A model generated the notes under the pieces. It did not search any database and was not told the DNA's origin. It was given only the letters and a program-made list of their open reading frames with translations. Both the position numbers and the translations under genes were made by a program. DNA of 38,652 nt from a virus. Its lineage: Duplodnaviria; Heunggongvirae; Uroviricota; Caudoviricetes. Of this stretch, positions 4,648 through 32,422 are shown in pieces; positions within the stretch are counted from its first letter, which is position 1; each line of letters begins with the position of its first letter. The stretch is taken from IMG/VR virus record IMGVR_UViG_2671180727_000010, one strand, 5' to 3'.

Positions 4648-4648
4648 A

Positions 4649-5457: not shown

Positions 5458-5536
5458 GCTCTCTCTCTGTTGTTGTCGGTCGCTCTCATTACTGGCCAAA
5501 AACCCTTTCGACCAAAAGTAAATAATGCGACTGGCG

Positions 5537-6370
5537 TTACGCACGGCGAACAATCATACGGTTGTTGATGTAACTGACCAGCAAGCGCCAGGTACTGCGA
5601 GCCACATGCACGTTTGCAGCTTTACCGGTACGGTACATGTTGGTTGTTTCACCGATTGACTCTGACAAAATGCCATCCTCTCGTGCTGCGGCAACATCAT
5701 TGCCATTTGCGATCTCACACGCTTCGTTGACAACGGCAAGCATCAACGCTTCTTTGAAGTAGTCAGGGAACTCTTCAAACTTCTCCTGCGTCATCTTTTC
5801 CCAATCGACTAAATCATGCCGGTACGCTCCATCTGCTCCCCACGGAATGTCATACACATTCAGCATATTTTGAGGGCGATCGTATCGGTCAAAGTCGATA
5901 CGTAGAATTTTGCGGATTGAGAACGGTAAAGTTTTAATTCGTCTGGTAGCCTCAATGAGACGCTTGCGCATTAAGCCTTCACCATCCGACAGCAAAGTGT
6001 CCCCATTCAGCATATCGATCGCTTGCATTTGAGCATCAGCGACAGTTGCAAACGACTGTTCTGGTATCGACAGTTCAAAACTATTCAGCAGAACATACAT
6101 TTGCCGCTCTTCATGCGTCAGACCCGATGCAACAGCCTTCACAATGACGTACCGCAGATCGCGTTCTTTCTCAGAGAGCTGGTTATATTCAGCCGACACG
6201 ACAACCGGAATCGACATTTGACCGCTGGTAATTTCTAGCGGCTCGCCATCAACGAGAATAGCCCCGGTGCTGTCCTTTACTGTGTAGGTAGCAGATTCGA
6301 TATCCAGCACGTTGAAGGCAAATGAAAGGGAAACAGCTTCACCGCTACGATACGAGTCGATCTGCGCCAT
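5537..6370 (-). CDS. Phage structural protein, unknown function (277 aa)
   Basis: ORF in the late operon between the decoration-like and neck genes; no recognisable motif. Confidence 0.45.
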   Translation of the reverse strand: MAQIDSYRSGEAVSLSFAFNVLDIESATYTVKDSTGAILVDGEPLEITSGQMSIPVVVSAEYNQLSEKERDLRYVIVKAVASGLTHEERQMYVLLNSFELSIPEQSFATVADAQMQAIDMLNGDTLLSDGEGLMRKRLIEATRRIKTLPFSIRKILRIDFDRYDRPQNMLNVYDIPWGADGAYRHDLVDWEKMTQEKFEEFPDYFKEALMLAVVNEACEIANGNDVAAAREDGILSESIGETTNMYRTGKAANVHVARSTWRLLVSYINNRMIVRRA

Positions 6371-6804
6371 TACTCACCGCCTTGTGCTTTCAGGATGCCT
6401 TCAATCATCTCGACAATTCCTTTCGCTTTGACACCAACCTGATTACCAATCACACGTAGACCGGCAATGCCTTCATTGTCTGCAATTGACTCCAACTCTT
6501 CTCGTGTGAAAGTCTGGATCTGTTTGGCCGGTTCATCTGGTGTCCCACGTTTCATTGGCACAATGTCAGGTGCTGCTGGCTCGGTAATCAGGTCTGCGGT
6601 CAACTCGCCACGATCACTGTATGCGGCAGACGGAGAAACATTTTTGCCCTCGACTGTTGATGCTCGCATTGAGGCACAAATCCTTTGCTGATCGATAAAA
6701 GGCAACTCCGCTACGGACACCCCGTTCTCGAACTGAACGCCGCACAACATTCCCGAATAACCGGAAAATTGCGGTTCTAATAAAACAATTTTTGCTGGTT
6801 TCAT
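6370..6804 (-). CDS. Phage structural protein, unknown function (144 aa)
   Basis: ORF abutting the downstream gene (stop/start at 6370); late-operon synteny. Confidence 0.45.
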   Translation of the reverse strand: MKPAKIVLLEPQFSGYSGMLCGVQFENGVSVAELPFIDQQRICASMRASTVEGKNVSPSAAYSDRGELTADLITEPAAPDIVPMKRGTPDEPAKQIQTFTREELESIADNEGIAGLRVIGNQVGVKAKGIVEMIEGILKAQGGE

Positions 6805-6848
6805 AACGCATTCTCTCTACATGGGCGGCTTTCGCCGCCCAATATTGA

Positions 6849-7769
6849 TTATTCCTGTGCAGCAGTGACTTCTACGGTCGCTGTCGCTTTGTGGCTACCA
6901 TCTTGGGTAGTAACCTCGATTGTGGCAGTACCAGCCGCAACGCCAGTTACAACACCGGTTTCGCTATCCACCGTTGCAAACTCGGTATTTTTGGATTCCC
7001 AAGTAACGGTTTTATTTGTTGCTCCTGCCGGCTCGACATTTGCGGTCAGCTGAACAGTTTTGTTTGCCTCAACGGTTGTGCTATTTGGGTCGATTTCGAC
7101 GCCGGTAACAGCCACAACAGGCGCAGTTACTTCCACCGTTGCAGTTGCCTTTTTGCTGCCATCTTGGGAAACGATCTCAATCGTCGCAGTGCCAACTTCT
7201 ACACCAGTAACGTTCCCGCTCTGGTCTACCGTTGCCTTATCTTCATTTTTGGAAGACCAGGTAACAGCCTTATTCGTCGCATTTGACGGCTGAACATTCG
7301 CTTTCAGACTGACTGATTTCCCTTTCTCAACAGACGTTGATTCTGGCGTTACCGTTACGGATTGAACGGCTACCGGATTTACGGTGACTTCCACTGAAGC
7401 GGAAAGCTGGGTTTCCTGATCAGTTGCAGTAATTTTTACTTTGCCTGGTGCTACGCCAGTTACTAATCCAGTGCCGTTAACGGTTGCAATTTGGTCATTG
7501 GCTGACTTCCAGGTGAATGAACTGGCACTCTTACCCATACTAATACCTGCACTAAGTTGAACAGTTTTCCCAACCAAAACTGACGGTGAAGCCGGGGTTA
7601 TGTTTACGGATTGGGAGAGGGGAACCGCCTGCAAACAAGCAGATAGCTGACTTTGTTGCCGCTCAGTTAAAGGTTGATCGGAGATAGAATTGGTAAATCC
7701 GGCACGGCACATATGCCCCGTAAAATCCGAAAATGCCTCTTCCGTAATCTTCATCTTTTGTTCTGGCAT
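6849..7769 (-). CDS. Ig-like (Big_2 repeat) head decoration-type protein
   Basis: Three tandem Ig-like repeats (e.g. VTVTPESTSVEKGKSVSLKANVQP...TWSSKNEDKATVDQSGNVTGVEVGTATIEI); directly downstream of the capsid gene. Confidence 0.6.
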   Translation of the reverse strand: MPEQKMKITEEAFSDFTGHMCRAGFTNSISDQPLTERQQSQLSACLQAVPLSQSVNITPASPSVLVGKTVQLSAGISMGKSASSFTWKSANDQIATVNGTGLVTGVAPGKVKITATDQETQLSASVEVTVNPVAVQSVTVTPESTSVEKGKSVSLKANVQPSNATNKAVTWSSKNEDKATVDQSGNVTGVEVGTATIEIVSQDGSKKATATVEVTAPVVAVTGVEIDPNSTTVEANKTVQLTANVEPAGATNKTVTWESKNTEFATVDSETGVVTGVAAGTATIEVTTQDGSHKATATVEVTAAQE

Positions 7770-7782
7770 TTCTCGCTCCTAC

Positions 7783-7811
7783 AAAAAGGGTGGGCGTATA
7801 GCCCACCCTTT
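7783..7811 (-). terminator. Intrinsic terminator after the major capsid gene (probably partial read-through)
   Basis: Minus strand GGGTGGGC-tata-CGCCCACCC followed by TTTTT, 30 bp after the capsid stop. Confidence 0.6.
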
Positions 7812-7842
7812 AACATAGATAACTACTTATCTACTACACTGA

Positions 7843-8718
7843 TTAAATTTTTACATTGGTCAGTGCAGCGATAGCCTTATCGTGCTTATTCGCCAGAGAG
7901 CAGTACCACTTCACACGGGTACGTACTGCGTCTTTGTTCTGTACAGTACCAATGTTTTCAACAACGATACCTGCGTTGTCGCCGCCATACAGACCAGTAA
8001 CGCCGTTCTCTTCTGACAGATGCAGGCAGTAGATGCTTGCTTTGCCAGAATCGGTCGGGATGAAGTCGTTGATGATGAACGGAACGCCGTTATGACACAG
8101 CATCGGACGACCGAAGTTCTCCATCATGATTTCAGACGGACCTACGTTTACTGTACGCAGCAGCGCACGGTAAGCACGCAGGTGCTCTGAACGCATCATG
8201 ATGCAGTCAGCACCAAGATCTTTCACCGCATCGACCAGTTCGTCGAACATAGAGAAAGTCATAGATGCACCGGCGATATCGATCTTCTGATCTGCGTGCA
8301 TCAGGCGTGGAATGCCGTCAAACGCCTTGTTGTTGGAGCTGGAGTCACCCAAAATCAGGTTGCGACGGAACGCACGAGCCAGACCTTTAACTTTCTGACG
8401 AACCTGAATAGCCAACTGGTTGTTGGTGTCGGCCATAGTGGTCGCCAGGAATTTATCAACGTCTACGTCACCAGCCAGAATACGCAGTTTCGCAACGCAT
8501 TCTTCGAAGGTTGCTGCACCTTCAGGGATGGTGTCGTTAACGTCGATGAAGGTAGCTTCACTCAGCGTTTTTTCACGGTTGTACAGATATGCCTTTGAAT
8601 TAATTTTCATAAAAGGCAGGATGGCAAACAGGTCATCGCGATCGATGATAGTTTCGATCACACCCTGTTCAAGTTCGTTGTTAGACAGCTTTTCAGCTTC
8701 TTCACGCAGTAATGGCAT
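7843..8718 (-). CDS. Major capsid protein (putative)
   Basis: 291-aa ORF following the scaffold-like gene in terS-terL-portal-scaffold-capsid order; followed by a terminator, as expected for the most abundant product. No homology verified. Confidence 0.55.
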   Translation of the reverse strand: MPLLREEAEKLSNNELEQGVIETIIDRDDLFAILPFMKINSKAYLYNREKTLSEATFIDVNDTIPEGAATFEECVAKLRILAGDVDVDKFLATTMADTNNQLAIQVRQKVKGLARAFRRNLILGDSSSNNKAFDGIPRLMHADQKIDIAGASMTFSMFDELVDAVKDLGADCIMMRSEHLRAYRALLRTVNVGPSEIMMENFGRPMLCHNGVPFIINDFIPTDSGKASIYCLHLSEENGVTGLYGGDNAGIVVENIGTVQNKDAVRTRVKWYCSLANKHDKAIAALTNVKI

Positions 8719-8743
8719 CTATCAATTCCCTTTGATTTAGATG

Positions 8744-9631
8744 TTACTTAAGTCCAATTTTCCCCAGACCGGAGGCCAACTTATCCATAGTCGACTTGTT
8801 CTTCGGTTGGGATATTGTGTAGGTCGATTTGGAATGTGAGCCTACACCCTGCTTGGCTTCGCTACGCATCAATGCGTCAGCTTCCGGATCTGCCCGCACA
8901 ATGCGTTCAATCGCGGATTCAAACGGCAACGGCTTACCTTCACCGTCAACCAGAACAGCTCGTTCTTTGTGACCTGCCGGTTTGTCATAACCCACTACGC
9001 TACCGTCTTCACCCACTTCAAAATGAGAACCGTAGATCACGCGGGCTTTTGCCGGGGTCATCAGAACTTTGTCACGTAGGAAGAGAGAGTTACTGAAGGA
9101 AGCGCCCACGGTCATCTCGACTAATTGAGATTTCAGTGATGCGTTTTCACTTTCCAGTGCTGCATAACGTTCGTCACGCTGTGCCAGCTCTGCCTGGTGT
9201 GCTTCGATCATCTGTTTTTTAACAGCATCGAACTCACCACGACGCTCCAGTTCAGCTTGCTCCGCCTCACGACGTGCGTTTTCTGCGGCCTGTTCAGCTT
9301 CTAAAAGCTGGCGAGCACGAGCCGGATCGATATCACCGTACTGAGCAAGCTGATCGGCCAATGTGCGCTCTTTCTCTTTGCGCTTCATGTTCTCCTTCAG
9401 CAGTTCAGCACCAGCTTTCTTGGTTTTACGAAGTTCGGCCAGTAACTCTTCCTGAGTCATGCCAGCGTATTCGTCATCGCCCTTCGGCTGCTCTTTTTGT
9501 TCACCCTGTTTGTCAGGATCTTGTGTACTCTGCTCATTATCAGCAGCTACACCGCCAGCGCCTCCACGCTCATGCGCTTCAGCGACATCCATCAGACCAC
9601 GACGGGCCAAAAGCATTTGCCACAGATTCAT
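8744..9631 (-). CDS. Scaffolding protein (putative)
   Basis: Highly charged, coiled-coil-like (..AEQAAENARREAEQAELERRGEFDAVKKQMIEAHQAELAQRDERYAALESENASLKSQL..); between portal and capsid genes. Confidence 0.5.
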   Translation of the reverse strand: MNLWQMLLARRGLMDVAEAHERGGAGGVAADNEQSTQDPDKQGEQKEQPKGDDEYAGMTQEELLAELRKTKKAGAELLKENMKRKEKERTLADQLAQYGDIDPARARQLLEAEQAAENARREAEQAELERRGEFDAVKKQMIEAHQAELAQRDERYAALESENASLKSQLVEMTVGASFSNSLFLRDKVLMTPAKARVIYGSHFEVGEDGSVVGYDKPAGHKERAVLVDGEGKPLPFESAIERIVRADPEADALMRSEAKQGVGSHSKSTYTISQPKNKSTMDKLASGLGKIGLK

Positions 9632-9652
9632 AAAAATTCCTTTTGTTACTTA

Positions 9653-11227
9653 TCACTCGTTCTCTTGAGTAGATGAGTCCCCATTCCCTCGGGGTTGATC
9701 TTGCCCGCTTTCTTGGGCTGCACCACGATCATAAGTAAGTACTGACTTATTTTCAAGGGTATTTAGATCATTTTTTGGAGGAAAATTCAAGAGATCTTTA
9801 TCAAATTCCTTTTTCATCGCCTCAGTAATGTTCGGGAAAATCTTCTCAATAAGCATTTCCATCTGGTGACGACGTACAGAGTCCGGTGCCTGAAGTAATG
9901 ACAGTTTCTCGGCAACAGAAAATTCATCAGTAAGGCCACGAATATCGAAACTTTCTGGATATGCAATTAAAGAGTGGTCTTCGTCCAGATCTACCCCCAT
10001 CCATTTCGCAACCAGTAGCATGATTTGGCGTTCAGCCCTTTCCAGACGCTCTGCTTTTGTGACAAGCAAGCTATTTACACGCTGGAAGTCATACATTTTT
10101 GCGGCACCAGATGAATTATCGATTCCCTGTGCGTTGTCCTGCTTCGTTCGCTCACCAGCTACACCAACTGAATGGTAGATTTCGTTAATCACCGTCTTAA
10201 TCGTAGTGATGATCATCTGAGCTTGTTTCGGGTCTGGTGACAGATAAAACGGCTGGTTTCCACCTTCAGAATCGTAGGTGAAGACTCGCTTTGTGCCCAT
10301 TTCAAGCACTTTAGTGTGGTTTTCATCACCAGGTAAAAGCGACTGTACCGGTATAGCCAACTGGCTAAATGTCTGATCCTGAATAATGGCATCAAGGTTT
10401 GACAGATAGTTTGCAACCGCACGATCAAGATAAGCGATATCATCGATCAACGATGGGCTGAAATACGGTGATTCACTTTCTCCAATACAATCAACAGGAA
10501 ACACAGGAACTACGCCGAGATTATGCTCACCGCTATCCTCTAAAATTACTTTTGCCTGACGGCGACCTGCTCCACCAGCGCCCTTCTTCACTTCCTCACG
10601 GAACAGATACCACTCGTTTTGTGTCCACAGACGATAACGTTGGTATTCCTGACCTGTAGAAGTAAAAGGATCTGCGTCATCACGAGCGACTTCCACAATT
10701 AACGCCCACAACATATTCCCGTCGTCGTCCCATGCCACATCCAGCATTTGCTGAGGTGAAATCCAGTAGGCGTAGGCGCGAGCATCTTTCTTTTTCTCGT
10801 CAGCTACTGACTCAACATCACCACTCATCGTGCTATCGACAACAACCCATATGCGACCGTAAATAGACGACTGCAAATCAATAGCGGCCATAAATGAGTC
10901 AATAGAGGCATTCTGGCGAGTCGCACGTTTCCAGAAATTGCGGATCTGCTCTGGTGCCTCTTCGATATTTCTATGAATGTCTTCTTTAAAGAGATATTTG
11001 TTGATGAGGTTTACCACCTCACGAGTGTGGTTGAAGCGATAAGCACGTTCAACTCGCTCCTTAAACTCCTGATCTCCCTCTTTAAAGTAACGAAAGATAT
11101 TGTCTGTAAACCAACCACGCCCGCCAGCGTAAGTGCTGGCGAGGAAGTCCCAATGTTCTTTTTTCTTTTCGTATTCCGGGTGGCGTCGCGCCACCAGATC
11201 CTTAATTTGTTTGTCGTTCAATTCCAT
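9653..11227 (-). CDS. Portal protein (putative)
   Basis: 524-aa ORF immediately downstream of terminase large subunit; size and position typical of a portal. Confidence 0.55.
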   Translation of the reverse strand: MELNDKQIKDLVARRHPEYEKKKEHWDFLASTYAGGRGWFTDNIFRYFKEGDQEFKERVERAYRFNHTREVVNLINKYLFKEDIHRNIEEAPEQIRNFWKRATRQNASIDSFMAAIDLQSSIYGRIWVVVDSTMSGDVESVADEKKKDARAYAYWISPQQMLDVAWDDDGNMLWALIVEVARDDADPFTSTGQEYQRYRLWTQNEWYLFREEVKKGAGGAGRRQAKVILEDSGEHNLGVVPVFPVDCIGESESPYFSPSLIDDIAYLDRAVANYLSNLDAIIQDQTFSQLAIPVQSLLPGDENHTKVLEMGTKRVFTYDSEGGNQPFYLSPDPKQAQMIITTIKTVINEIYHSVGVAGERTKQDNAQGIDNSSGAAKMYDFQRVNSLLVTKAERLERAERQIMLLVAKWMGVDLDEDHSLIAYPESFDIRGLTDEFSVAEKLSLLQAPDSVRRHQMEMLIEKIFPNITEAMKKEFDKDLLNFPPKNDLNTLENKSVLTYDRGAAQESGQDQPRGNGDSSTQENE

Positions 11228-11253
11228 TTGAATAACCTTAGATAATTACTTAC

Positions 11254-12510
11254 CTATCGAGAACCACCAAGAATAACACGGTTTTTGACTGGATACCTAC
11301 GATGTACTGGATAGCCCAATGCGTCTGCACTATGCTCAATGCCACCTGTCTTATCCATATCTCGTGTTCCAGGCTTGTAGATGACTTTTTCCAGTGAATC
11401 AATCAAATGCTTGCACTTCGGATCGATATACAGCCGGATATCTCCAGATGCGGTCATCAGCATTCGGTTAACAGCATTAACACGATCCGCAATTGGCGGG
11501 TGCTTTTTCGAATAATCGACACGTAAGAATCCCTTCTCTTTGAATATGTCGACGTCAGACTCCCCGCGAGCATGTTGGCGATAAGCACCTGCCGGATCTG
11601 GAAATACCGTTATCTGTGATTTCCAGCGCCAGAAGCGTCTCTCAAGCTCATCACAAACCTCTGCCGTGTTAGAGGAAAAGAGCACCAATTCATCAATTGC
11701 CCATAGCTCACCATTTGGCTGAGGTTGCAAAATTACTGAAGACATCGGGTCAATGTTGAAGTCCTGCCCTACCCATATAGGCAACCGAGGGTTGAACTGA
11801 AGCGGTTTTACATGCACGTTACGATCGAACGGGTAGTAAACGCGCCCGGACATGTTCTCAAAGCTCGCCAGGTACTCCTGAGCGAACGATTTCGGGTCCA
11901 TATCGTTCTTAGCAGCTTCAATTTCCGCCGTAGGTACAAACGGAGAATCGGCAGTTACAAACTGCCAGCTCTTCCACTGTCCCTTTCTTTGCAGCTCTAC
12001 GTTCTGGCCTATAGTCCACAGTTTGTGAAATTCCGAGAAGCCTTTTGGCGTACCAATGATCAGTGCACCGCCGCGTGTCGATGAAAGAGTAGGTCGTAAC
12101 ACCTTGTACCAGGTGTCAGCCTTCATATCCTGAAATTCATCAAGCACTACAAAATGCAACGCTACGCCGCGCAGAGTGTCAGGCTTATCAGCACCTTTGA
12201 GGGCGATCTCCGAACCGTTCTTCAACACGATTGTCATCGTGGTGTCGTTCTTTTTCCTAACCCACTTACGAGGCAGAACTTCCTGTAGATCGTCCCACAA
12301 AATCTGGCGAGCCATCTGGTAAGTAGGAGCGACATACCAGACTCTTTGCTTTTTTTCCTTTGCCGCCGCACGAATAATAGTGGAGATCGACAACCGGGAT
12401 TTTCCCCAGCGTCGACCAGCACAAACAACTTTAAATCGATGCGGAGACTGGAAGACTTTCATCTGTCCAGAATGCAGTTGCACAAGACTGAGCGAGGACG
12501 GGATTGCCAT
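11254..12510 (-). CDS. Terminase large subunit
   Basis: N-terminal Walker A VVCAGRRWGKS; Walker B-like VVLDEFQD; C-terminal nuclease-like region; stop/start overlap with the upstream terS-like gene. Confidence 0.85.
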   Translation of the reverse strand: MAIPSSLSLVQLHSGQMKVFQSPHRFKVVCAGRRWGKSRLSISTIIRAAAKEKKQRVWYVAPTYQMARQILWDDLQEVLPRKWVRKKNDTTMTIVLKNGSEIALKGADKPDTLRGVALHFVVLDEFQDMKADTWYKVLRPTLSSTRGGALIIGTPKGFSEFHKLWTIGQNVELQRKGQWKSWQFVTADSPFVPTAEIEAAKNDMDPKSFAQEYLASFENMSGRVYYPFDRNVHVKPLQFNPRLPIWVGQDFNIDPMSSVILQPQPNGELWAIDELVLFSSNTAEVCDELERRFWRWKSQITVFPDPAGAYRQHARGESDVDIFKEKGFLRVDYSKKHPPIADRVNAVNRMLMTASGDIRLYIDPKCKHLIDSLEKVIYKPGTRDMDKTGGIEHSADALGYPVHRRYPVKNRVILGGSR

Positions 12511-13142
12511 TATTCGTCCTCCCCTTCACTTCCATCATCTGTCGCATCAAATTCGCTTAGAGCTTCTTCTTCCAACGTCTCAAGCAATTCGTCATCGATG
12601 ATTTCAGGCTCGTCGTCTTCCTGACGTAATTTCGCCACCTGGGAAGGCGTAAGCTCACCAAATACCAGGTTCGGAATTTCTTCCTCGTCATTTTCCGCAT
12701 GATCCATGCCCAATGCTTTGGACGAAACTTCAAAGCATTTTGCAAGGGTATTACTGGCTCTCTGTAAGCTCTTGAGAGAATCCTCAATCGCCCCTAAAGG
12801 CTTACCCTCACGTTTGGCCGTAGTGACTTCGACCATCACCATCTGCCCCAACGCATACGCCCAGCCGTCATAACGTGTACGACGTTCTTCTATCTTTTCC
12901 GCACGGGCTTTAGCGCGAAGCTCTGCGTCAGATTTAAGAGACTCACGAACCATCTTCCCAACAGAGTCCGCGCCTTTCTCTAATCCTCGCTTTTTGAAAT
13001 GTCTGGAGAGTGTTTCACGACGAATGCCGTACTCTTCCTCCAGCTTTGAGAGTGTATATTCGCCTGACGTCCATTTGGCTTCAGCTTCGGCCCACTCCGC
13101 TGGTGTCAGGCGAGTTTTTACCTCGTCTTTTTCGACCGTCAT
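12510..13142 (-). CDS. Terminase small subunit (putative)
   Basis: 210 aa with N-terminal HTH-like segment (YTLSKLEEEYGIRRETLSRHFKKRG) and strongly acidic C-terminal tail; directly precedes terL. Confidence 0.6.
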   Translation of the reverse strand: MTVEKDEVKTRLTPAEWAEAEAKWTSGEYTLSKLEEEYGIRRETLSRHFKKRGLEKGADSVGKMVRESLKSDAELRAKARAEKIEERRTRYDGWAYALGQMVMVEVTTAKREGKPLGAIEDSLKSLQRASNTLAKCFEVSSKALGMDHAENDEEEIPNLVFGELTPSQVAKLRQEDDEPEIIDDELLETLEEEALSEFDATDDGSEGEDE

Positions 13143-13161
13143 AGATCCCTCTAAAACACAC

Positions 13162-13245
13162 AGAGCGCGTCCATGCGCTCTAAAACAACTTGTTTACTGC
13201 ATCTGCTAACCAACTTGTTTTCTGGGGTGTTTAATTAGGTCTGGC
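13162..13245 (-). promoter_or_regulatory. Late-operon promoter/leader region with two AAAACAA-N-TTGTTTT-type operator palindromes and a leader hairpin
   Basis: Palindromes at ~13182-13196 (AAAACAAcTTGTTTA) and ~13207-13221; hairpin AGAGCGC-gtccat-GCGCTCT at 13162-13181; TAATTAAACACC -10/leader motif shared with the early-gene promoters. Confidence 0.45.
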
Positions 13246-13337
13246 ATGTCTTACGAAGCCTGCTTCCGTATATATTTAATAAGTTACTTATTATTTATAT
13301 ATACAGATGCAGGTCTTTAAATAAGCTCCCAGACCGA

Positions 13338-13604
13338 TTACATCACCAGTAACTTCGCTTTGGCTCGACCTAAAGTGGTTAACCCAAGAGTCCGGCGGTG
13401 ATAGCGATTGTCACTGCGTTGGCGCGTATGCCCTTTCTCCACCAGCCCCTTTTTTATCAGAGCGCGAATTGAGAACTGGATACTTTGCTTGGTTGTCTTG
13501 TACGGCAAAACTTCAAGCAATTCGTCCAGGTCAAGTAGATGACCTCGCTCATAACCGAGATTGAGCGTTTTGATGATGTCCTTTTGTTTGTCGGTTAACG
13601 TCAT
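13338..13604 (-). CDS. Small winged-helix-like DNA-binding protein (88 aa), last gene of the five-gene operon
   Basis: Basic C-terminus and helix-turn-wing-like core (QSIQFSIRALIKKGLVEKG); ATG 9 bp after the stop of the upstream gene. Confidence 0.45.
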   Translation of the reverse strand: MTLTDKQKDIIKTLNLGYERGHLLDLDELLEVLPYKTTKQSIQFSIRALIKKGLVEKGHTRQRSDNRYHRRTLGLTTLGRAKAKLLVM

Positions 13605-13613
13605 GGCAAATCC

Positions 13614-14504
13614 TTATGCTGGTAAAGCAATTTCTAACGGTTTATCCAAAGGTTGTTTGTCGAATGCCAGCAGTGGCAGCGTGTCAGGCAGTCGACGGCC
13701 AAAGTCAGGGTTTCGGTACACACCATACAACGGAGACGTAAAGCTCAGGTTGTGAATGTCCTTGAGCAGCTTCACAATGCTGGCCTCGTCCACCAGACTG
13801 TCGGCAATGTCCTGAATCGTCGTGCCACGATTCCGCCCAGCTTTTGCCAGGGAACTGTTCTTATGGTAGTCCGCCACCAAATCGCGCAGCGCACGGCGAC
13901 GACGAGACTCGCTCATAGCGAACAACTCTTTGACGATCGCCTCGTTATCACCCGGGTCGGAGCGGAAATGGCGCTGGAACACACGCAGTGCACTTTCATA
14001 GCTCTTCGGTCGCTCAGGGCGGATGAACTTAAACCCTGCTTTCATGGCGAAGGGATTGTATTTGCTCATCGAGGACTGGATCTCAATGATTGGCCGGTCA
14101 TGCATCCTGCTAACCAGGTTAATCATTCTATAAGAGACGCCTACGCCACGATACTGAGTATCCACAACTGAGCGACTGATCACCGCAAAGTTGTTATTCA
14201 CGTACCGACCCCAGTACTGGTTAGCCACGGTGGTATTAGTGGTTGGTTTCAACTTAGGAAACATGCGGTGGCGAGGTGCCAACAGTAGTTTCGGGTAAGC
14301 CATAACCACGACGCCCACCAGACGGTCATCAAGTTCGCAGCGATAGTAAGTTGGCGCGAAAGGTTTGCCGTCTGTTTTGTAGTGAAGCGACTTAAGAGCG
14401 TGCCAGTCCTCTACAGTTCCCTTTGTAACAGTCATTCGCTCCAGAAAGTCCAGATGACGCGGAAACTCTTCAGGGCGGTAGCGTTTAATGATGATGTCCG
14501 TCAT
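13614..14504 (-). CDS. GNAT-fold acyltransferase-like protein with ~120-aa C-terminal extension
   Basis: Motif A-like Q-x-x-G-x-G (TQYRGVGVSYRMINLV) and motif B-like YNPFAMKAGFKF; ATGA start/stop overlap with the ABC ATPase gene. Confidence 0.5.
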   Translation of the reverse strand: MTDIIIKRYRPEEFPRHLDFLERMTVTKGTVEDWHALKSLHYKTDGKPFAPTYYRCELDDRLVGVVVMAYPKLLLAPRHRMFPKLKPTTNTTVANQYWGRYVNNNFAVISRSVVDTQYRGVGVSYRMINLVSRMHDRPIIEIQSSMSKYNPFAMKAGFKFIRPERPKSYESALRVFQRHFRSDPGDNEAIVKELFAMSESRRRRALRDLVADYHKNSSLAKAGRNRGTTIQDIADSLVDEASIVKLLKDIHNLSFTSPLYGVYRNPDFGRRLPDTLPLLAFDKQPLDKPLEIALPA

Positions 14505-18155: not shown

Positions 18156-18434
18156 ATGAGTGAAAAGAAAACAACTTACTGTCAGGTAGCATTGTCTGAT
18201 AAGGCCAATGACAAACTTGGAAAGTTTCAAGTGAAACTAAAAGAAAAAAATATCAAAATGTCTAAGGCTGAAGTCATAAATACCATTCTGGAACAATTGA
18301 CAATGGCCGACTTTGACAAGGTTATATCTTCTGTCGGGGCTTCCGCTAAGACTCGTGAGAAAATCATGCGTATCTATGAGAACTCTAATATGACAAAGGA
18401 AGATCTCGAAACGCTATTAAGCAGATTAAAATAA
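18156..18434 (+). CDS. Small protein, possibly ribbon-helix-helix-like (92 aa)
   Basis: ATG 2 nt after the helicase stop; no firm motif. Confidence 0.4.
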   Translation: MSEKKTTYCQVALSDKANDKLGKFQVKLKEKNIKMSKAEVINTILEQLTMADFDKVISSVGASAKTREKIMRIYENSNMTKEDLETLLSRLK

Positions 18435-18460
18435 TCACGCTATCAATTAGGGAGACAAAG

Positions 18461-18925
18461 ATGAAGTCTCCCATACTGTTCACTTTCTGTTCTAAAACTA
18501 ACATGAAATACTCGCTTCTCCCTCTACTAACGTTACCAGTGTTGATGCTTACCGCGTGCCAATCACGTCCAATATCAATCCATGACGCCAAACCAGCACC
18601 GCAGGCCAAAGTGTTCAAGTATCAAAGCGCAGCGCCAGCTACGTTGGTGGTAATGAGAGACACAGGTTTTGTAGGAGCTGGATGTGATGCTTCCATTTTC
18701 ATCAATGGCGAAACTGTCGCAAAACTGGCTACAGGCGAAAAAGCGACTTTCCATTTAAATGCCGGAGAATTAATTGTGGGTGCATCTCTTGAAGGTGCAG
18801 GTTTATGTGCTCTAAACCCCGCTCGTCAAGAGCGAGAAACGACTCTGAAGAATGGAGACACAAAAGCGTTCAGGGTGTTCACCAGCAATTCTGGTGACAT
18901 CGACATTCTGCCAACAACTCTGTGA
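18461..18925 (+). CDS. Lipoprotein (putative)
   Basis: RBS GGGAGA before the ATG; internal signal MKYSLLPLLTLPVLMLTAC with lipobox L-T-A-C. Confidence 0.6.
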   Translation: MKSPILFTFCSKTNMKYSLLPLLTLPVLMLTACQSRPISIHDAKPAPQAKVFKYQSAAPATLVVMRDTGFVGAGCDASIFINGETVAKLATGEKATFHLNAGELIVGASLEGAGLCALNPARQERETTLKNGDTKAFRVFTSNSGDIDILPTTL

Positions 18926-18929
18926 TGAC

Positions 18930-19454
18930 ATGACAACCAAAGATATTACCTACGGTATCCAAGCTGAACTCTGGCCGCGAGATTACACTAACGTTGAAAA
19001 ACTACTGATGTTCTGGCGCAGAGAACAAATTCCTGTAAGGGTCACTCTCGAAGATGGCCAGGCGTTTTGCATGTACGTTTATGGCCTCATGCCATCTCGT
19101 AACAAAGTTGACCTTTGCCCAGCCCCTTTTGACAAAGAAAATCGTATAAGGCTCCCACTTGAACGCATTAGTACAATTGAATCAGGTGTGGTTGACAGTA
19201 TCGCTCACGATTTCAAAGGTCGACTAACAGTTCACCCTGATTATGTCGATAATCGGCCATCACGCCGCGATTTTTTTGCAATTTGCAACCAAGCCTACAA
19301 AGCAAACAAATCTATAAGGGTGTACATGGCGGATGGCCGTGAAATTGAGGGGGTGTCAGCAGGCGCAGATGCTTGTCAGGTTACACTACGTGTCGAGAAC
19401 GGTAGAAAAATAGTTGTTTTGTTCGATTGGGTTGAACGAATTTTGCCTTTTTGA
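18930..19454 (+). CDS. Hypothetical protein (174 aa)
   Basis: ATG at 18930 just after the lipoprotein stop (MTTKDITYGIQ...); the track ORF starts earlier at 18852 within the overlap. Confidence 0.45.
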   Translation: MTTKDITYGIQAELWPRDYTNVEKLLMFWRREQIPVRVTLEDGQAFCMYVYGLMPSRNKVDLCPAPFDKENRIRLPLERISTIESGVVDSIAHDFKGRLTVHPDYVDNRPSRRDFFAICNQAYKANKSIRVYMADGREIEGVSAGADACQVTLRVENGRKIVVLFDWVERILPF

Positions 19455-19457
19455 GTT

Positions 19458-27902: not shown

Positions 27903-29936
27903 TTACTTAACCTGGTGGCCTGGTTTAGCACCAGCATCCGGGCTTAACAGGAAGATATCTTTCCCGCCGGGGCCAGCAGCCATCACCATGCCTTCGGAGA
28001 TACCGAAGCGCATTTTACGTGGTGCCAGGTTAGCCACCATAATGGTGTGACGACCAATCAGTGCCTGTGGATCTGGATAAGCGGAACGGATGCCTGAGAA
28101 GACATTACGCTTTTCACCACCGAGATCCAGCGTCAGACGAAGCAGTTTGTCAGAACCTTCTACAAACTCTGCGTTTTCAATCAGCGCCACGCGCAGGTCA
28201 ACTTTGGCGAAGTCGTCAAAGGTGATAGTTTCCTGAATCGGGTCGTCAGCCAGTGGGCCAGTTACCGGTGCGGCTGTGGCTTTCACTTCTTCTTTGGATG
28301 CTTCCACCAGTGCTTCAACCTGCTTCATATCGATGCGGTTATACAGTGCCTTGAACGGATTCACTTTATGGCCCAGCAGCGGTTGCTGGATACCATCCCA
28401 GGTCAGTTCTGTATTCAGGAATGCTTCTGCACGTTCAGTCAGTTTCGGCAGTACCGGCTTCAGGTACGTCATCAGCACGCGGAACAGGTTAATGCCCATA
28501 GAGCAAATCGCCTGCAGATCGGCATCGCGTCCTTCCTGCTTCGCCACCACCCACGGAGCCTGTTCATCGACATAGCGGTTAGCCAGGTCAGCCAATGCCA
28601 TGATTTCACGGATAGCTTTACCAAATTCGCGGCTTTCCCATGCTTCGCCAATCACTTCAGCGGCATCAGTAAAGGTTTTGTACAGTTGCGGGTCAGCCAG
28701 TTCGCTTGCCAGCACGCCGTCAAAACGCTTGTTGATAAAGCCTGCATTACGGGAGGCCAGGTTAACCACTTTGTTCACGATATCGGCATTCACGCGCTGA
28801 ACGAAATCCTCCAGGTTGAGATCGATATCATCAATGCGCGAAGAGAGTTTCGCAGTGTAGTAGTAACGCAGGCTGTCGGCGTCAAAATGATTCAGCCAGG
28901 TGCTGGCTTTAATAAAGGTGCCGCGAGACTTGGACATCTTCGCGCCGTTCACCGTCACATAGCCGTGAACAAACAGGTTGGTCGGCTTGCGGAAGTTGCT
29001 GCCTTCCAGCATGGCAGGCCAGAACAGGCTGTGGAAGTAAACAATATCTTTACCGATGAAGTGGTACAGCTCGGCGGTGGAGTCTTTCTTCCAGTATTCA
29101 TCGAAGCTGGTGGTATCGCCGCGCTTGTCGCACAGATTCTTGAAGGAACCCATGTAGCCAATCGGCGCGTCCAGCCAGACGTAGAAATATTTGCCCGGCG
29201 CGTTCGGAATTTCAAAACCGAAGTAAGGCGCATCTCGGGAGATATCCCACTGTTGCAGGCCGGATTCAAACCATTCCTGCATTTTGTTCGCCACCTGCTC
29301 CTGCAACGCGCCGCTGCGGGTCCATGCCTGCAACATTTCGCTGAAAGAAGGCAGATCAAAGAAGAAGTGTTCGGAATCACGCATTACCGGGGTAGCGCCA
29401 GAAACCACCGATTTCGGCTCGATCAATTCAGTCGGGCTATATGTTGCGCCGCAGACTTCACAGTTATCGCCGTATTGATCTGGCGCTTTACATTTCGGGC
29501 AGGTGCCTTTTACAAAACGATCCGGCAGGAACATGCCTTTTTCCGGGTCGTACAACTGAGAGATAGTGCGGTTTTTAATAAAACCGTTCTCTTTCAGGCG
29601 AGTATAGATAAGCTCAGACAACTGACGGTTCTCTTCGCTGTGCGTCGAGTGATAGTTGTCATAGCTGATGTTAAAGCCTGCGAAATCAGTCTGGTGTTCC
29701 TGACTCATTTCGCCAATCATCTTCTCCGGTGTGATACCAAGCTGCTGTGCTTTCAGCATGATCGGCGTACCGTGGGCATCGTCGGCACAGATGAAATTAA
29801 CCTCGTGGCCGCGCATTCGCTGGTAACGAACCCAGACATCAGCCTGGATGTGCTCCAGCATATGGCCGAGGTGGATTGAGCCGTTAGCGTACGGCAGCGC
29901 GCACGTCACCAGAATTTTCTTCGCGACTTGGGTCAT
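27903..29936 (-). CDS. metG: Methionine--tRNA ligase
   Basis: 677 aa from [28 protein letters not shown] (HIGH motif) with KMSKS; matches my recollection of Escherichia MetG almost throughout; the track ORF starts 43 codons upstream at an out-of-context ATG. Confidence 0.97.
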
Positions 29937-30093
29937 AGTAGGCATTACTTCTTTGTAGTGAAAAGGGGCTTGATAGTAACAAAATGGCCTTATGTCTGCC
30001 ATGTGATAACAGCATTTCTCATAAATGATTAAATGTCGTAGCTGGAGTACACTACAAGGCGACAATTGCGCAAATTAAAATAAAGGAGACGGG

Positions 30094-31194
30094 ATGAGCG
30101 AGTCCAAATCGCCGGATGCCCTGAGAGCAATGGTAGCCGGTACGCTGGCTAATTTTCAGCACCCAACCCTGAAACACAACCTGACTACGCTTAAAGCGTT
30201 ACACCATGTTGCGTTGATGGATGACACACTGCATGTCGAACTAATCATGCCTTTCGTGTGGAATAAGCCTTTTGAAGACCTGAAAGAGCAATGTAGTGGT
30301 GATCTGCTCCGTATCACTGGCGCAAAGGCTATTGACTGGAAGCTGTCGTACAACATTGCCACGCTTAAGCGCGTCAAAAACCAACCAGGCATTAATGGCG
30401 TTAAGAACATTATCGCCGTCAGCTCAGGCAAGGGCGGCGTGGGTAAATCCTCCACGGCGGTAAACCTGGCACTGGCGTTGGCTGCTGAAGGTGCGAAAGT
30501 TGGTATTTTGGATGCCGATATCTATGGTCCATCAATTCCAACCATGCTGGGCGCGGAAAACCAACGTCCAACCTCACCTGACGGTACTCACATGGCACCT
30601 ATCATGTCTCATGGCCTGGCAACCAACTCTATTGGTTATCTGGTCACCGACGACAATGCAATGGTGTGGCGTGGACCGATGGCCAGCAAGGCGCTGATGC
30701 AGATGTTGCAGGAAACTCTATGGCCTGATCTGGACTATCTCGTTCTCGATATGCCGCCGGGCACTGGTGATATTCAGTTGACGCTGGCGCAGAACATTCC
30801 TGTAACTGGTGCGGTTGTGGTAACTACGCCGCAAGACATCGCGCTGATCGATGCGAAGAAAGGCATTGTGATGTTCGAAAAAGTCGAAGTGCCGGTACTG
30901 GGTATCGTCGAAAACATGAGTGTGCATATTTGCAGTAACTGCGGTCATCACGAGCCAATTTTTGGCACCGGTGGCGCACAGAAACTGGCCGAGAAATACA
31001 ACACGCAGTTGTTAGGCCAAATGCCACTTCATATCTCTCTTCGTGAAGATCTGGATAACGGAACACCAACCGTTATTAGTCGTCCAGATAGCGAATTTAC
31101 GGCTATTTATCGTGACCTCGCAGATCGCGTTGCCGCCCAAATGTATTGGCAAGGTGAAGTAATACCTGGCGAAATCGCATTCCGCGCAGTGTGA
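30094..31194 (+). CDS. apbC: Fe-S cluster carrier ATPase ApbC/Mrp
   Basis: P-loop SGKGGVGKSSTAVNLA; CxxC motif (CSNCGHH); divergent from metG as in Escherichia; the true start may differ from the track start by a few codons. Confidence 0.93.
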   Translation: MSESKSPDALRAMVAGTLANFQHPTLKHNLTTLKALHHVALMDDTLHVELIMPFVWNKPFEDLKEQCSGDLLRITGAKAIDWKLSYNIATLKRVKNQPGINGVKNIIAVSSGKGGVGKSSTAVNLALALAAEGAKVGILDADIYGPSIPTMLGAENQRPTSPDGTHMAPIMSHGLATNSIGYLVTDDNAMVWRGPMASKALMQMLQETLWPDLDYLVLDMPPGTGDIQLTLAQNIPVTGAVVVTTPQDIALIDAKKGIVMFEKVEVPVLGIVENMSVHICSNCGHHEPIFGTGGAQKLAEKYNTQLLGQMPLHISLREDLDNGTPTVISRPDSEFTAIYRDLADRVAAQMYWQGEVIPGEIAFRAV

Positions 31195-31220
31195 TAAAAA
31201 GGCGGTGCATTGCACCGCCT
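31195..31220. terminator. Hairpin between apbC and the convergent UmuD'-like gene (likely terminator for the minus-strand gene)
   Basis: GGCGGTGCA-t-TGCACCGCC; on the minus strand it is followed by TTTTTAT. Confidence 0.5.
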
Positions 31221-31231
31221 AATCAGTTCTC

Positions 31232-31621
31232 CTACATCACGGGACAATCATCAAACTCGCCACTTCTTGCGTCGTTGATAATGTGAGTGATCACACCAAA
31301 CACGGCATTGCTGCCCGTGCATCCATCGTCATCCTTTGGCAATGCTTCCTTCTTACCGGTTCTTAAATCCTCCAGATGCTGACGTGGGTACTTCCGGTAT
31401 CTTTTTACGCGATATTCCCCATCCAGAGCGCATACAAGCAGAGAACCATCAACCGGGGTAAGTGAGGAATCGACCACCAGCAATGCACCCTGTAATATTC
31501 CCTCACGATGATGACTATCAGCTGCCCTCATGAAGTAGGTCGCTGAAGGATGTCTAATTATCTGCTGATCAAGAGAAATACGGCTCTCAGCATAATCCGC
31601 CGCAGGAGAAGGGAAGCCCAT
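31232..31621 (-). CDS. UmuD'-like S24 peptidase-fold protein, genetically pre-truncated (begins at the residue equivalent to the UmuD cleavage product)
   Basis: MGFPSPAADYAESRISLDQQIIRHPSATYF... aligns with UmuD from its Cys24-Gly25 cleavage site onward (my recollection of UmuD); the GDSM Ser motif is replaced by ADSHH; RBS AAGAGG; LexA box immediately upstream; no umuC-like gene adjacent. Confidence 0.75.
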   Translation of the reverse strand: MGFPSPAADYAESRISLDQQIIRHPSATYFMRAADSHHREGILQGALLVVDSSLTPVDGSLLVCALDGEYRVKRYRKYPRQHLEDLRTGKKEALPKDDDGCTGSNAVFGVITHIINDARSGEFDDCPVM

Positions 31622-31637
31622 AATACTCGCCTCTTAA

Positions 31638-31657
31638 TACTGTATATACATACAGTA
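31638..31657. promoter_or_regulatory. LexA (SOS) box TACTGTATATACATACAGTA
   Basis: 19 of 20 match to the E. coli consensus TACTGTATATATATACAGTA (CTGT-N8-ACAG); lies between the promoter and the RBS of the UmuD'-like gene. Confidence 0.8.
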
Positions 31658-31952
31658 TATGTTGAAGCTATATATTTTTGAACTCTATCTCTTAAAAAAG
31701 ATGTTAATAAGATGCTAACTATTGAAAGGCATAAATATATACAATTCCAACAAACGTTATTTTTAACAAATTTTTTCTCTCTGTTGACTTTTGCGAAAGC
31801 CTTGTCTGGCCTAAATTGCGCGGAAGCTACTTTTTCCTTCCTGAGTTATCCACAGAGTTATGCACTTGCATGCATAACCTATACACACTATCTTAATTCG
31901 CAAGACACTGATGTTGCGGTATTGAAGGTTCATTGGGTTAAAAATAGACATT

Positions 31953-31985
31953 AAAAAGCCCAGTTGACTAGGCTGGGCTTTTTAA
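31953..31985. terminator. Bidirectional-looking terminator hairpin
   Basis: AAAAAGCCCAG-ttgacta-CTGGGCTTTTT (A-tract before, T-tract after). Confidence 0.5.
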
Positions 31986-32017
31986 AAGGAAACAGAGTTT
32001 GCGGCTCTGTTCCTGAG

Positions 32018-32036
32018 CCATAAGTATCTGGCGACT
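32018..32036. repeat. 19-bp direct repeat CC(A/G)TAAGTATCTGGCGACT, copy 1
   Basis: 18 of 19 identical to the copy at 32191-32209; contains the GTAAGTAT half-site of the palindromic operator. Confidence 0.6.
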
Positions 32037-32190
32037 GAATTAAGATTAACCGAATGTACTGGATTCATCAAGAAACGTTGAGTGGTCATACCAGGTAATA
32101 ATGACCATTTACTAAACATCGTTGTTCTCAAAGAAGATTTAAGTCCAGGTTTTTGGTGACTCTAAAACCTTACCTTAACTCGAAATCGTG

Positions 32191-32209
32191 CCGTAAGTAT
32201 CTGGCGACT
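32191..32209. repeat. 19-bp direct repeat, copy 2
   Basis: See copy 1; the intervening ~154 bp contain the inverted repeat TGGTCAT...ATGACCA. Confidence 0.6.
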
Positions 32210-32283
32210 ACAGATATTGCAACTGCAAAGGCAAGCCCAAAGGTATTTGCAGCTAGGCGCGATAAAACTAAGTGAGGCCTGTT

Positions 32284-32367
32284 ATGGTTAACTTACTGTT
32301 CAAAATCGTGCCGCCGATGTTCGCGATTATCAAAGCGATCATTGAGTACGTAAACCAGCGTCCATAA
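32284..32367 (+). CDS. Possible 27-aa hydrophobic peptide (MVNLLFKIVPPMFAIIKAIIEYVNQRP)
   Basis: GTGAGG 6 nt upstream of the ATG; hairpin terminator directly downstream; below the ORF-track cut-off; hand-translated. Confidence 0.35.
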   Translation: MVNLLFKIVPPMFAIIKAIIEYVNQRP

Positions 32368-32380
32368 CGCTAGTTGCTAC

Positions 32381-32405
32381 AGGCCCCATCAAGAGCATGG
32401 GGCCT
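32381..32405 (+). terminator. Hairpin after the small ORF
   Basis: AGGCCCCAT-caagagc-ATGGGGCCT followed by CTTTATCG (weak U-tract). Confidence 0.45.
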
Positions 32406-32422
32406 CTTTATCGTACTATTGC

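What the first reader, a model, noticed from the sequence alone, without database searches (positions are those of the whole stretch)
31232..31657. SOS-box-controlled gene encoding an already-truncated UmuD'-like protein with no umuC partner
A near-consensus LexA box (TACTGTATATACATACAGTA) sits directly upstream of an ORF whose product starts at the position of the RecA-mediated UmuD cleavage site, so it encodes the processed form outright. The self-cleavage serine motif is degenerate (ADSHH rather than GDSM), consistent with no longer needing to cleave. No polymerase subunit gene is adjacent. This could modulate host translesion synthesis or SOS checkpoints during induction.
Basis: partly seen in the sequence, partly recalled or inferred. 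Interest (0 to 1): 0.55.

Follow-up and report, generated by a model that had tools for sequence, protein, structure and literature searches.

The report
HumD: phage-borne pre-cut UmuD' homologue

Summary
A 129-aa ORF lies at 31232-31621 on the minus strand. A 19/20-consensus LexA box (31638-31657) sits 16 nt upstream of its ATG and overlaps the -10 of the only promoter-like site there. An in-frame TAA 15 nt upstream rules out a longer product. Residue G2 aligns with UmuD G25, the first residue of UmuD'. No Y-family polymerase gene was found among the window's ten largest unassigned ORFs or in the annotation of the nearest complete plasmid.

It is already known. The protein scores 219.8 bits (cutoff 120) on NCBI's HumD equivalog model, is 91.5% identical to phage P1 HumD and is 100% identical to a gene of the SSU5-like phage-plasmid Cyrano/pLF82. 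The P1 record annotates the same LexA site and states that HumD complements UmuD'.

One correction: this protein still has the catalytic Ser36 and Lys73; only their neighbours have changed.

One unexplained extra: a conserved, clade-specific C-terminal tail (EFDDCPVM) resembles the SSB C-terminal tip.

Interest is low.

The parts
31232..31621 (-). humD coding sequence (129 aa plus stop): a UmuD'-sized S24-fold protein.
   Evidence: ORF. NCBIfam NF051876 HumD equivalog 219.8 bits against cutoff 120. Pfam Peptidase_S24. 91.5% identical to P1 HumD and 100% to Cyrano CYRAN_98. The AF2 model's best PDB matches are UmuD/UmuD'.
31638..31657 (.). LexA (SOS) box TACTGTATATACATACAGTA, matching the consensus at 19 of 20 positions.
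   Evidence: 0 expected by chance. A box at the same position is annotated as a LexA binding site in P1 and phiKO2. Boxes are also present upstream of the humD homologues in Cyrano, BTP1, HK140 and Pocitis76.
31654..31682 (-). Sigma-70 promoter-like site: -35 TTCAAA (31682..31677), 17-nt spacer, -10 TATACT (31659..31654). The -10 overlaps the LexA box.
   Evidence: This is a consensus match only; the number of such matches in the region was not above the shuffle expectation. Its position relative to the box and the ATG is what makes it plausible.
31630..31635 (-). Shine-Dalgarno AAGAGG, 8 nt before the ATG.
   Evidence: Read from the sequence.
31634..31636 (-). In-frame TAA 15 nt upstream of the ATG; it excludes a full-length UmuD-type product.
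   Evidence: Read from the sequence. It is consistent with the ORF listing starting the ORF at 31621.
31200..31220 (-). GC-rich hairpin followed by a T run, 11 nt after the humD stop. It is a terminator-like site shared head-to-head with the end of apbC.
31235..31258 (-). Codons for the clade-specific C-terminal tail E122-F-D-D-C-P-V-M129. UmuD has no such tail.
   Evidence: Each tail position has the consensus residue in at least 94 of 120 family members. The tail is present in 14 of 37 pre-truncated representatives and 0 of 36 full-length ones. It has low confidence in the AF2 model.
31403..31516 (-). Stretch bounded by the Ser36 codon (31516..31514, AGT) and the Lys73 codon (31405..31403, AAA), the equivalents of UmuD Ser60 and Lys97.
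   Evidence: Alignments; codons read.

Best explanation
This is humD, a self-contained SOS-regulated cargo gene ('moron') of about 430 bp carried by an SSU5-like phage-plasmid closely related to Cyrano/pLF82.

In the resting lysogen, host LexA binds the box that overlaps the -10 and probable start site of the humD promoter and keeps the gene off (inferred from anatomy and from the annotated P1 and phiKO2 sites).

DNA damage activates RecA, LexA cleaves itself, and humD is transcribed.

Its product is made directly in the UmuD' form. It lacks the 24-residue N-terminal arm, so it needs no RecA-mediated processing.

By homology with P1 HumD (91.5% identical), it dimerises, binds host UmuC and RecA filaments, and supplies the accessory subunit of a Pol V-like translesion polymerase. 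This would bypass the slow UmuD-to-UmuD' cleavage step that normally delays mutagenic bypass.

Shown here: the anatomy, family membership, conservation of the box-plus-gene module, and purifying selection. Taken from the literature for the P1 orthologue: complementation of UmuD'. Inferred: LexA control in this element, and any benefit to the phage-plasmid.
For: Family membership:
- HumD equivalog 219.8 bits against a cutoff of 120, full length 1-129 of 129.
- 91.5% identical to P1 HumD and 100% identical to the Cyrano gene.
- Sequence matches UmuD' structures from residue G2 = UmuD G25.
- The fold model matches UmuD/UmuD' best, TM 0.74-0.76 normalised by target.

Regulation:
- LexA box at 19/20 of consensus, not expected by chance, overlapping the -10.
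- The P1 record annotates 'LexA binding site in the regulatory region of lxr and humD' and 'functionally complements E. coli UmuD''.
- phiKO2 annotates a lexA site before its UmuD-like gene.
- Boxes also precede the homologues in BTP1, HK140 and the 45-46%-identical Pocitis76 gene.

Module boundaries: similarity to P1 begins at the box and ends at the stop codon.

Selection: pN 0.18 against a saturated pS of 0.81 versus phiKO2.

No partner polymerase gene found on the element.

Literature:
[quoted passage not shown] - UmuD'2C forms about 45 min after SOS induction (PMC6375631 abstract).
Against: - No experiment exists on this allele or in an SSU5-type element.
- From my memory of McLenigan 1999 (text not held): P1 HumD complemented well only from a high-copy plasmid and is kept at low levels, so translesion synthesis may not be its natural role.
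- The promoter call is only a consensus match.
- The family has a strongly conserved C-terminal tail and other clade-specific residues (R39, E40, C64, Y75, R76, H82) that UmuD' lacks and that the Pol V model does not explain.
- The nearest complete plasmid encodes its own RecA, DnaE, a gp32-type SSB and other replication proteins, so the partners could be phage proteins rather than host ones.
Confidence: 0.8

Rival explanations
1. HumD acts mainly as a polymerase or RecA 'manager', not as a mutagenesis factor. By binding RecA filaments, the beta clamp or Pol III alpha/epsilon, or the element's own RecA and DnaE, it would slow or remodel replication and recombination during SOS to the element's benefit. 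UmuD gene products do this in the umuDC checkpoint.
For: UmuD gene products bind the alpha, beta and epsilon subunits of Pol III and disrupt the alpha-beta complex (PMC3384344 abstract). The nearest complete plasmid encodes its own recA and dnaE. There is no umuC on the element. Clade-specific conserved residues and the tail point to partners that UmuD' does not have.
Against: In UmuD, the known clamp and checkpoint functions depend largely on the N-terminal arm, which HumD lacks (PMC5342242 abstract, plus my own knowledge). P1 HumD does complement UmuD' in mutagenesis (annotation).
Confidence: 0.12
2. The conserved C-terminal tail (…GEFDDCPVM-COOH) is a mimic of the SSB C-terminal tip. It would dock HumD, or a HumD2-UmuC complex, onto proteins that carry SSB-tail-binding pockets, or compete with SSB for them. 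This would add to either model above rather than replace it.
For: - The tail is at the extreme C-terminus. Each of its eight positions has the consensus residue in at least 94 of 120 family members.
- It is kept in relatives down to about 40% identity, as variants such as EFDDTPF, EFDEIPCI and EWDDLPVI. It is absent from all 36 full-length UmuD-like representatives.
- E. coli SSB ends …MDFDDDIPF. That is the same eight-residue register: [DE]-F-D-D, then a hydrophobic last residue.
- The tail has low confidence and no secondary structure in the model, as expected for a flexible docking peptide.
- Pol IV is recruited through the SSB tail (PMC3401449 and PMC9565051).
Against: - The resemblance was noticed after the fact and covers eight residues only.
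- The proline is one position further from the C-terminus than in SSB, and the last residue is Met/Ile rather than Phe in most members.
- No binding data exist.
Confidence: 0.08
3. HumD retains Ser36 and Lys73 because it is still a protease that acts in trans, for example on host UmuD or on a phage repressor.
For: Both dyad residues are present in this protein and in P1 HumD.
Against: - The Ser position is Thr in 43 and Ala in 2 of 120 close family members. Its neighbours are hypervariable.
- Only 3 of 41 pre-truncated cluster representatives keep both residues, against 40 of 44 full-length ones.
- The Pocitis76 homologue has Tyr and Arg at these positions.
- A function that needed the dyad would conserve it.
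Confidence: 0.03
4. The gene is a decaying remnant of a umuDC operon and has no function.
For: It is a solo gene without umuC, and its catalytic motif is degenerate.
Against: - The reading frame is intact.
- 70 of 129 columns are invariant or at least 90% conserved over 100 sequences from seven genera.
- Synonymous sites are saturated while pN is 0.18.
- The regulatory box is conserved.
- The P1 orthologue is active.
Confidence: 0.01

Closest known systems
Bacteriophage P1 HumD (AAQ14181; McLenigan et al. 1999, J Bacteriol 181:7005; P1 record AF234173)
   Same: 129 aa and 91.5% identical. It has the same MGFPSP start, the same C-terminal tail, a LexA box at the same distance from the ATG, and no umuC.
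   Different: The host element is an SSU5-like siphovirus phage-plasmid, not P1. The flanks differ: P1 has lxr upstream and phd-doc downstream, while here there is about 765 bp without an annotated gene upstream and a plasmid-borne apbC-metG pair downstream.
E. coli UmuD' (PDB 1UMU, 1AY9, 1I4V; the processed form of UmuD)
   Same: Same fold and same N-terminus (G25). The sequence is about 40% identical over residues 2-118. Ser and Lys are at the equivalent positions.
   Different: HumD is made directly rather than by RecA-mediated cleavage of a 139-aa precursor. It scores below the cutoff of the UmuD subfamily model (87 against 110 bits). It has GDSM changed to ADSH with one residue deleted, a four-residue insertion at 101-104, a 10-residue C-terminal extension beyond the end of UmuD, and no operon partner umuC.
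UmuD-like gp23 of phiKO2 (and N15 gp26, which the P1 record cites as 69% identical to P1 HumD), and solo homologues in HK140, BTP1 and Pocitis76
   Same: They are pre-truncated solo genes behind a LexA box in temperate phages, with the same tail.
   Different: They are 45-73% identical. In phiKO2 and HK140 the box is shared with a divergent dinI gene, and no dinI or lxr counterpart is seen here. Pocitis76 has lost both Ser and Lys.
Plasmid and ICE UmuD homologues MucA, RumA, ImpA and SamA
   Same: They are S24-fold accessory subunits of mobile-element translesion polymerases and are SOS-regulated (own knowledge; PMC7092418).
   Different: They are full-length, must be cleaved, and lie in operons with a UmuC homologue.

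Membership tests
HumD family (NCBIfam NF051876, equivalog) | Score at or above the curated cutoff over the full length of the model. | tested here: met
   219.8 bits against cutoff 120; residues 1-129 on model positions 1-129 of 129.
HumD family | The product begins at the position of the UmuD Cys24/Gly25 cleavage site and has no N-terminal arm. | tested here: met
   G2 aligns with UmuD G25. An in-frame TAA lies 15 nt upstream of the ATG. 116 of 120 family members have Met at this position.
HumD family | Not in an operon with a umuC homologue. | tested here: met
   The gene is flanked by a terminator and apbC on one side and by about 765 bp without a called gene on the other. No Y-family polymerase was found in the ten ORFs scanned or in the annotation of the nearest whole plasmid.
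HumD family | LexA operator in the promoter region. | tested here: met
   The box at 31638-31657 matches 19 of 20 consensus positions and is homologous in position to the annotated P1 site. Actual LexA binding was not tested.
HumD family | Complements UmuD' in SOS mutagenesis; dimerises; binds UmuC and RecA filaments. | not testable with these tools
   Known for the P1 orthologue only (P1 record note; PMC7092418; details of McLenigan 1999 are from memory).
UmuD (Pol V autoproteolytic subunit, NCBIfam NF007621 / PRK10276) | Score above the curated cutoff. | tested here: not met
   87 bits against cutoff 110.
UmuD | N-terminal arm carrying the cleavage site, removed by RecA-stimulated self-cleavage. 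| tested here: not met
   The arm is absent.
UmuD / S24 self-cleaving peptidases | Ser-Lys catalytic dyad within a G-[DE]-S-M context. | tested here: inconclusive
   Ser36 and Lys73 are present, but the context is A-D-S-H with a one-residue deletion. The dyad is not conserved in the clade.
LexA / phage CI-type repressors | N-terminal DNA-binding domain joined to the S24 domain. | tested here: not met
   The 129-aa protein is entirely the S24 domain. The LexA model matches only residues 4-78, at 27 bits against a cutoff of 111.

The most novel reading that the evidence does not exclude
The pre-truncated (HumD) clade is more than UmuD' without its arm. It has let the catalytic dyad decay and has gained a conserved, flexible acidic C-terminal tail ([DE]-F-D-D-x-P-x-hydrophobic-COOH) that resembles the SSB C-terminal tip. 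If the tail docks into SSB-tail-binding pockets, phage HumD would bring host UmuC or other partners to SSB-interaction hubs at stalled forks, or would compete with SSB for repair factors. That function has not, to my knowledge, been described for any UmuD-family protein.
Probability: 0.1. Interest if true: 0.5.

Novelty: already known. Interest (0 to 1): 0.12.

Why it matters
It changes little. The gene, its LexA control, its pre-activated form and its lack of a polymerase partner were described for phage P1 in 1999 and 2004. NCBI has a curated model for the family, and RefSeq already labels the corresponding gene on the nearest complete plasmid 'HumD family translesion DNA polymerase'.

A match to some part of 31100-32100 was found in 794 of 5,426 complete E. 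coli genomes, mostly on plasmids.

The work adds three small points:
- The humD module also rides on SSU5-type phage-plasmids, with flanks different from those in P1.
- The catalytic dyad is lost across the pre-truncated clade but kept in full-length UmuDs. This gives comparative support to the view that the dyad serves only self-activation.
- The clade shares an unexplained conserved C-terminal tail that could be tested cheaply.

Tried and rejected
- **First structure prediction.** The alignment of 100 close HumD sequences gave pLDDT 45.7, which is unusable. A second, more diverse alignment gave pLDDT 73.
- **Metal-site idea.** I considered that C64, C126, H37 and H82 form a metal site, or that the tail folds back into the old active-site cleft. 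The usable model leaves the tail unstructured at low confidence, so it gives no support for either idea, and I dropped them as untestable here.
- **Divergent partner gene.** I looked for a P1 lxr or dinI counterpart divergent from humD. The upstream DNA is unrelated to P1 beyond the box. Only an unannotated 80-aa ORF matching a PHROG of unknown function is there, and no plus-strand promoter-like site was found.
- **RNA genes.** Rfam at gathering thresholds and ARAGORN found nothing in the window.
- **Primary papers.** McLenigan 1999 (PMC94175) and Lobocka 2004 (PMC523184) are not in the held library. Statements about their content rest on the P1 GenBank annotation, on citing papers, or on my memory, and are marked as such.
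- **Scripting on the P1 locus.** A script that needed the P1 locus failed because that file was not exported. I made the comparison with DNA alignment instead.
- **Rejected readings.** Full-length UmuD is excluded by the in-frame stop. A LexA-type repressor is excluded because there is no DNA-binding domain. A pseudogene is excluded by the purifying selection.

Full report
**1. What is in the sequence**

On the minus strand there is a 129-codon ORF at 31232..31621 with an ATG start. It is preceded by AAGAGG 8 nt upstream and by an in-frame TAA 15 nt upstream (31636..31634, read).

- **LexA box.** The 20-mer TACTGTATATACATACAGTA lies at 31638-31657, 16 nt from the ATG. It was found 0.00 times in 100 dinucleotide-preserving shuffles. 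It differs from the LexA consensus TACTG(TA)5CAGTA at one position and is the only site in the window within two mismatches of that consensus. The only other CTGT-N8-ACAG in the window, at 24321, has a GC-rich core, and about 0.4 such matches are expected by chance.
- **Promoter.** The only promoter-like site on that strand near the gene is TTCAAA-17-TATACT at 31682..31654. Its -10 overlaps the box, the usual arrangement for LexA repression. This is a consensus match, not proof.
- **Terminator.** A GC-rich hairpin with a T run follows the stop codon at 31220..31200.

**2. What the protein is**

- Pfam places it in Peptidase_S24.
- NCBIfam places it, over its full length, in the equivalog 'HumD family translesion DNA polymerase' at 219.8 bits against a cutoff of 120. 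It falls below the cutoff of the UmuD subfamily model (87 against 110) and far below that of LexA.
- Against solved structures, the best matches are E. coli UmuD' and UmuD. HumD G2 aligns with residue 1 of the UmuD' crystal chain and with residue 25 of full-length UmuD. The protein therefore begins exactly where RecA-mediated cleavage leaves UmuD'.
- A first AlphaFold model built from close relatives only was unusable (pLDDT 45.7). A second, from a more diverse alignment, reached pLDDT 73, with the core at 78-86. Its best PDB matches are UmuD and UmuD' (TM 0.74-0.76 normalised by target), followed by LexA C-terminal domains.

**3. It is a known gene**

By tblastn against phage genomes, the protein is 100% identical to gene CYRAN_98 of Escherichia phage Cyrano. 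It is 91.5% identical to HumD of phage P1, 90-93% identical to the genes of P1-like phage-plasmids SJ46, D6 and JL22, and 45-73% identical to solo homologues in phiKO2, HK140, BTP1 and Hafnia phage Pocitis76.

The P1 record annotates HumD as 'DNA repair; functionally complements E. coli UmuD''. It also annotates a 'LexA binding site in the regulatory region of lxr and humD' 20 nt before the start codon. Papers in the library say the same:
[quoted passage not shown] The primary paper is McLenigan et al. 1999, J Bacteriol 181:7005, cited. Its text was not held. From memory, it reports that HumD restores mutagenesis and UV survival when expressed from a high-copy plasmid, forms dimers, and binds UmuC and RecA filaments.

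RefSeq already labels the corresponding gene on the nearest complete plasmid 'HumD family translesion DNA polymerase'. A match to some part of 31100-32100 occurs in 794 of 5,426 complete E. coli genomes, mostly on plasmids.

**4. Where the window comes from**

The window is 98-99% identical, in collinear blocks, to plasmid pMB3825A_2 (NZ_CP103696.1). It carries siphovirus head and packaging genes: terminase, a major capsid protein and Ig-like domain proteins. The collinear plasmid annotates the 524-aa ORF at 9653..11227 as a portal protein.

Cyrano is the pLF82 phage-plasmid of E. coli LF82 and is SSU5-like (PMC9928086). The element is therefore an SSU5-type phage-plasmid, not a P1-type one.

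No Y-family polymerase was found among the ten ORFs scanned or in the annotation of the whole related plasmid. That plasmid does encode its own RecA, DnaE, a gp32-type SSB, primase, helicase and ligase.

**5. The module and its conservation**

Aligned with P1, similarity starts at the LexA box and stops at the humD stop codon. Everything outside is unrelated. P1 has lxr upstream and phd-doc downstream. Here there is about 765 bp without an annotated gene upstream and apbC-metG downstream.

A LexA box precedes the homologue in each of these:
- P1, Cyrano, phiKO2 and BTP1;
- HK140;
- Pocitis76.

In phiKO2 and HK140 the box is shared with a divergent dinI gene.

Some database entries for Citrobacter homologues carry a spurious N-terminal extension ('IQYLYCVF'). 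This looks like a translation of an SOS box, so those starts are probably over-called (my reading, not checked at the DNA level).

Compared with the phiKO2 gene, synonymous sites are saturated (pS 0.81) while pN is 0.18. The gene is under purifying selection and is not a relic.

**6. The catalytic motif**

In this protein the neighbours have changed: GDSM has become ADSH, with one residue deleted. Ser36 and Lys73, the equivalents of UmuD Ser60 and Lys97, are both still present.

- **Close family (120 cluster representatives):** the Ser position is S in 75, T in 43 and A in 2. The preceding position is hypervariable. Lys is kept in 117.
- **50%-identity cluster representatives from the exhaustive search:** proteins that start at the G25 position keep both residues in 3 of 41 cases. 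Proteins with an N-terminal arm of at least 20 residues keep both in 40 of 44. The Fisher test gives p of about 5e-16, but it treats the representatives as independent and is not corrected for phylogeny.
- **Pocitis76:** the homologue has Tyr and Arg at the two positions.

This fits the established view, which I state from memory (Nohmi et al. 1988, cited), that cleavage serves only to activate UmuD.

**7. An unexplained feature**

The HumD clade shares residues that UmuD lacks: R39, E40, C64, Y75, R76 and H82. Above all it shares a 10-residue C-terminal extension beyond the end of UmuD, ending E-F-D-D-C-P-V-M. Each of these eight positions has the consensus residue in at least 94 of 120 members.

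Variants such as EFDDTPF, EFDEIPCI and EWDDLPVI persist down to about 40% identity. The tail is present in 14 of 37 pre-truncated representatives and in 0 of 36 full-length ones. The model leaves it unstructured at low confidence.

It resembles the C-terminal tip of E. coli SSB, …MDFDDDIPF, which is the docking peptide for many replication and repair proteins, including Pol IV. The resemblance is short and was noticed after the fact, so I rate it a low-probability lead rather than a finding.

**8. Mechanism and rivals**

*Best explanation (confidence about 0.8).* LexA holds humD off. DNA damage derepresses it. The product is a ready-made UmuD'-type dimer that joins host UmuC and RecA to form a Pol V-like enzyme, without the delay imposed by UmuD cleavage; UmuD'2C normally appears about 45 min after induction (PMC6375631). 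Anatomy, family membership and conservation are shown here. Activity is known only for the P1 orthologue. LexA control in this element and the benefit to the element are inferred.

*Rivals.*
- A role as a manager of replication and recombination proteins, possibly the element's own RecA and DnaE (about 0.12).
- The SSB-tail mimic, which would add to either model (about 0.08).
- A protease acting in trans (about 0.03; contradicted by loss of the dyad in the clade).
- A dead remnant (about 0.01; contradicted by purifying selection).

**9. Verdict**

Interest is low (0.12). The only new points are comparative details: the SSU5-type carrier, dyad decay across the clade, and the conserved tail.

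Noticed in passing
window 27903-31194: The phage-plasmid carries a divergent metG (methionyl-tRNA synthetase) and apbC/mrp pair next to humD. The pair is about 90% identical to the chromosomal copy found in every complete E. coli genome and occurs at 222 places on plasmids. It looks like a captured piece of an enterobacterial chromosome that gives the host a second MetRS. The ORF listing over-extends metG to a TTG start (720 aa); RefSeq annotates a 2,034-nt gene.
   Followed up: partly
window 31658-32422: About 765 bp upstream of humD has no annotated gene in RefSeq or in the Cyrano record. It contains an 80-aa ORF (31712-31954, plus strand) that matches phrog_28987 of unknown function, in the position where P1 has lxr and phiKO2 has dinI. 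It also contains a hairpin with a T run at 31957-31974. No plus-strand promoter-like site and no Rfam match were found.
   Followed up: partly
L004 (NZ_CP103696.1) 19501-19520, outside the window: A second perfect TACTGT-N8-ACAGTA LexA-type box lies on the related plasmid, 27 nt upstream of a tyrosine recombinase gene (18371-19474, minus strand) and next to a glutaredoxin gene. SOS control of that recombinase is possible.
   Followed up: no
L004 (NZ_CP103696.1) 4413-13807, outside the window: The related phage-plasmid encodes its own RecA, DnaE (Pol III alpha), a gp32-type SSB, a 5'-3' exonuclease, primase, a DnaB-like helicase and ligase. These are possible non-host partners for HumD.
   Followed up: no
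L007 (phiKO2) 1681-2384; L008 (HK140) 1410-2390: In these phages the LexA box is shared between the humD homologue and a divergent dinI gene. That pairs two SOS modulators in one cassette.
   Followed up: no
proteins P0023, P0024, P0031, P0046, P0070, P0071, P0082: Database entries for HumD homologues in Citrobacter and Salmonella carry N-terminal extensions. In the 148-aa entries (P0024, P0031, P0071, P0082) the extension reads like a translated LexA box ('IQYLYCVF'). The annotated starts are probably too far upstream, and P0024 alone stands for 1,430 member sequences.
   Followed up: partly
window 24321-24336: CTGTTTCACGGAACAG fits CTGT-N8-ACAG but has a GC-rich core unlike LexA sites. About 0.4 such matches are expected by chance, so it is probably fortuitous.
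   Followed up: no
L006 (NZ_CP103696.1) 97586-103492 in record coordinates, outside the window: In the related plasmid an ISEcp1-blaCTX-M-14-IS903B unit is inserted into the phage thymidylate synthase gene, and a dfrA51 gene lies nearby. This is an SSU5-type phage-plasmid carrying an extended-spectrum beta-lactamase.
   Followed up: no
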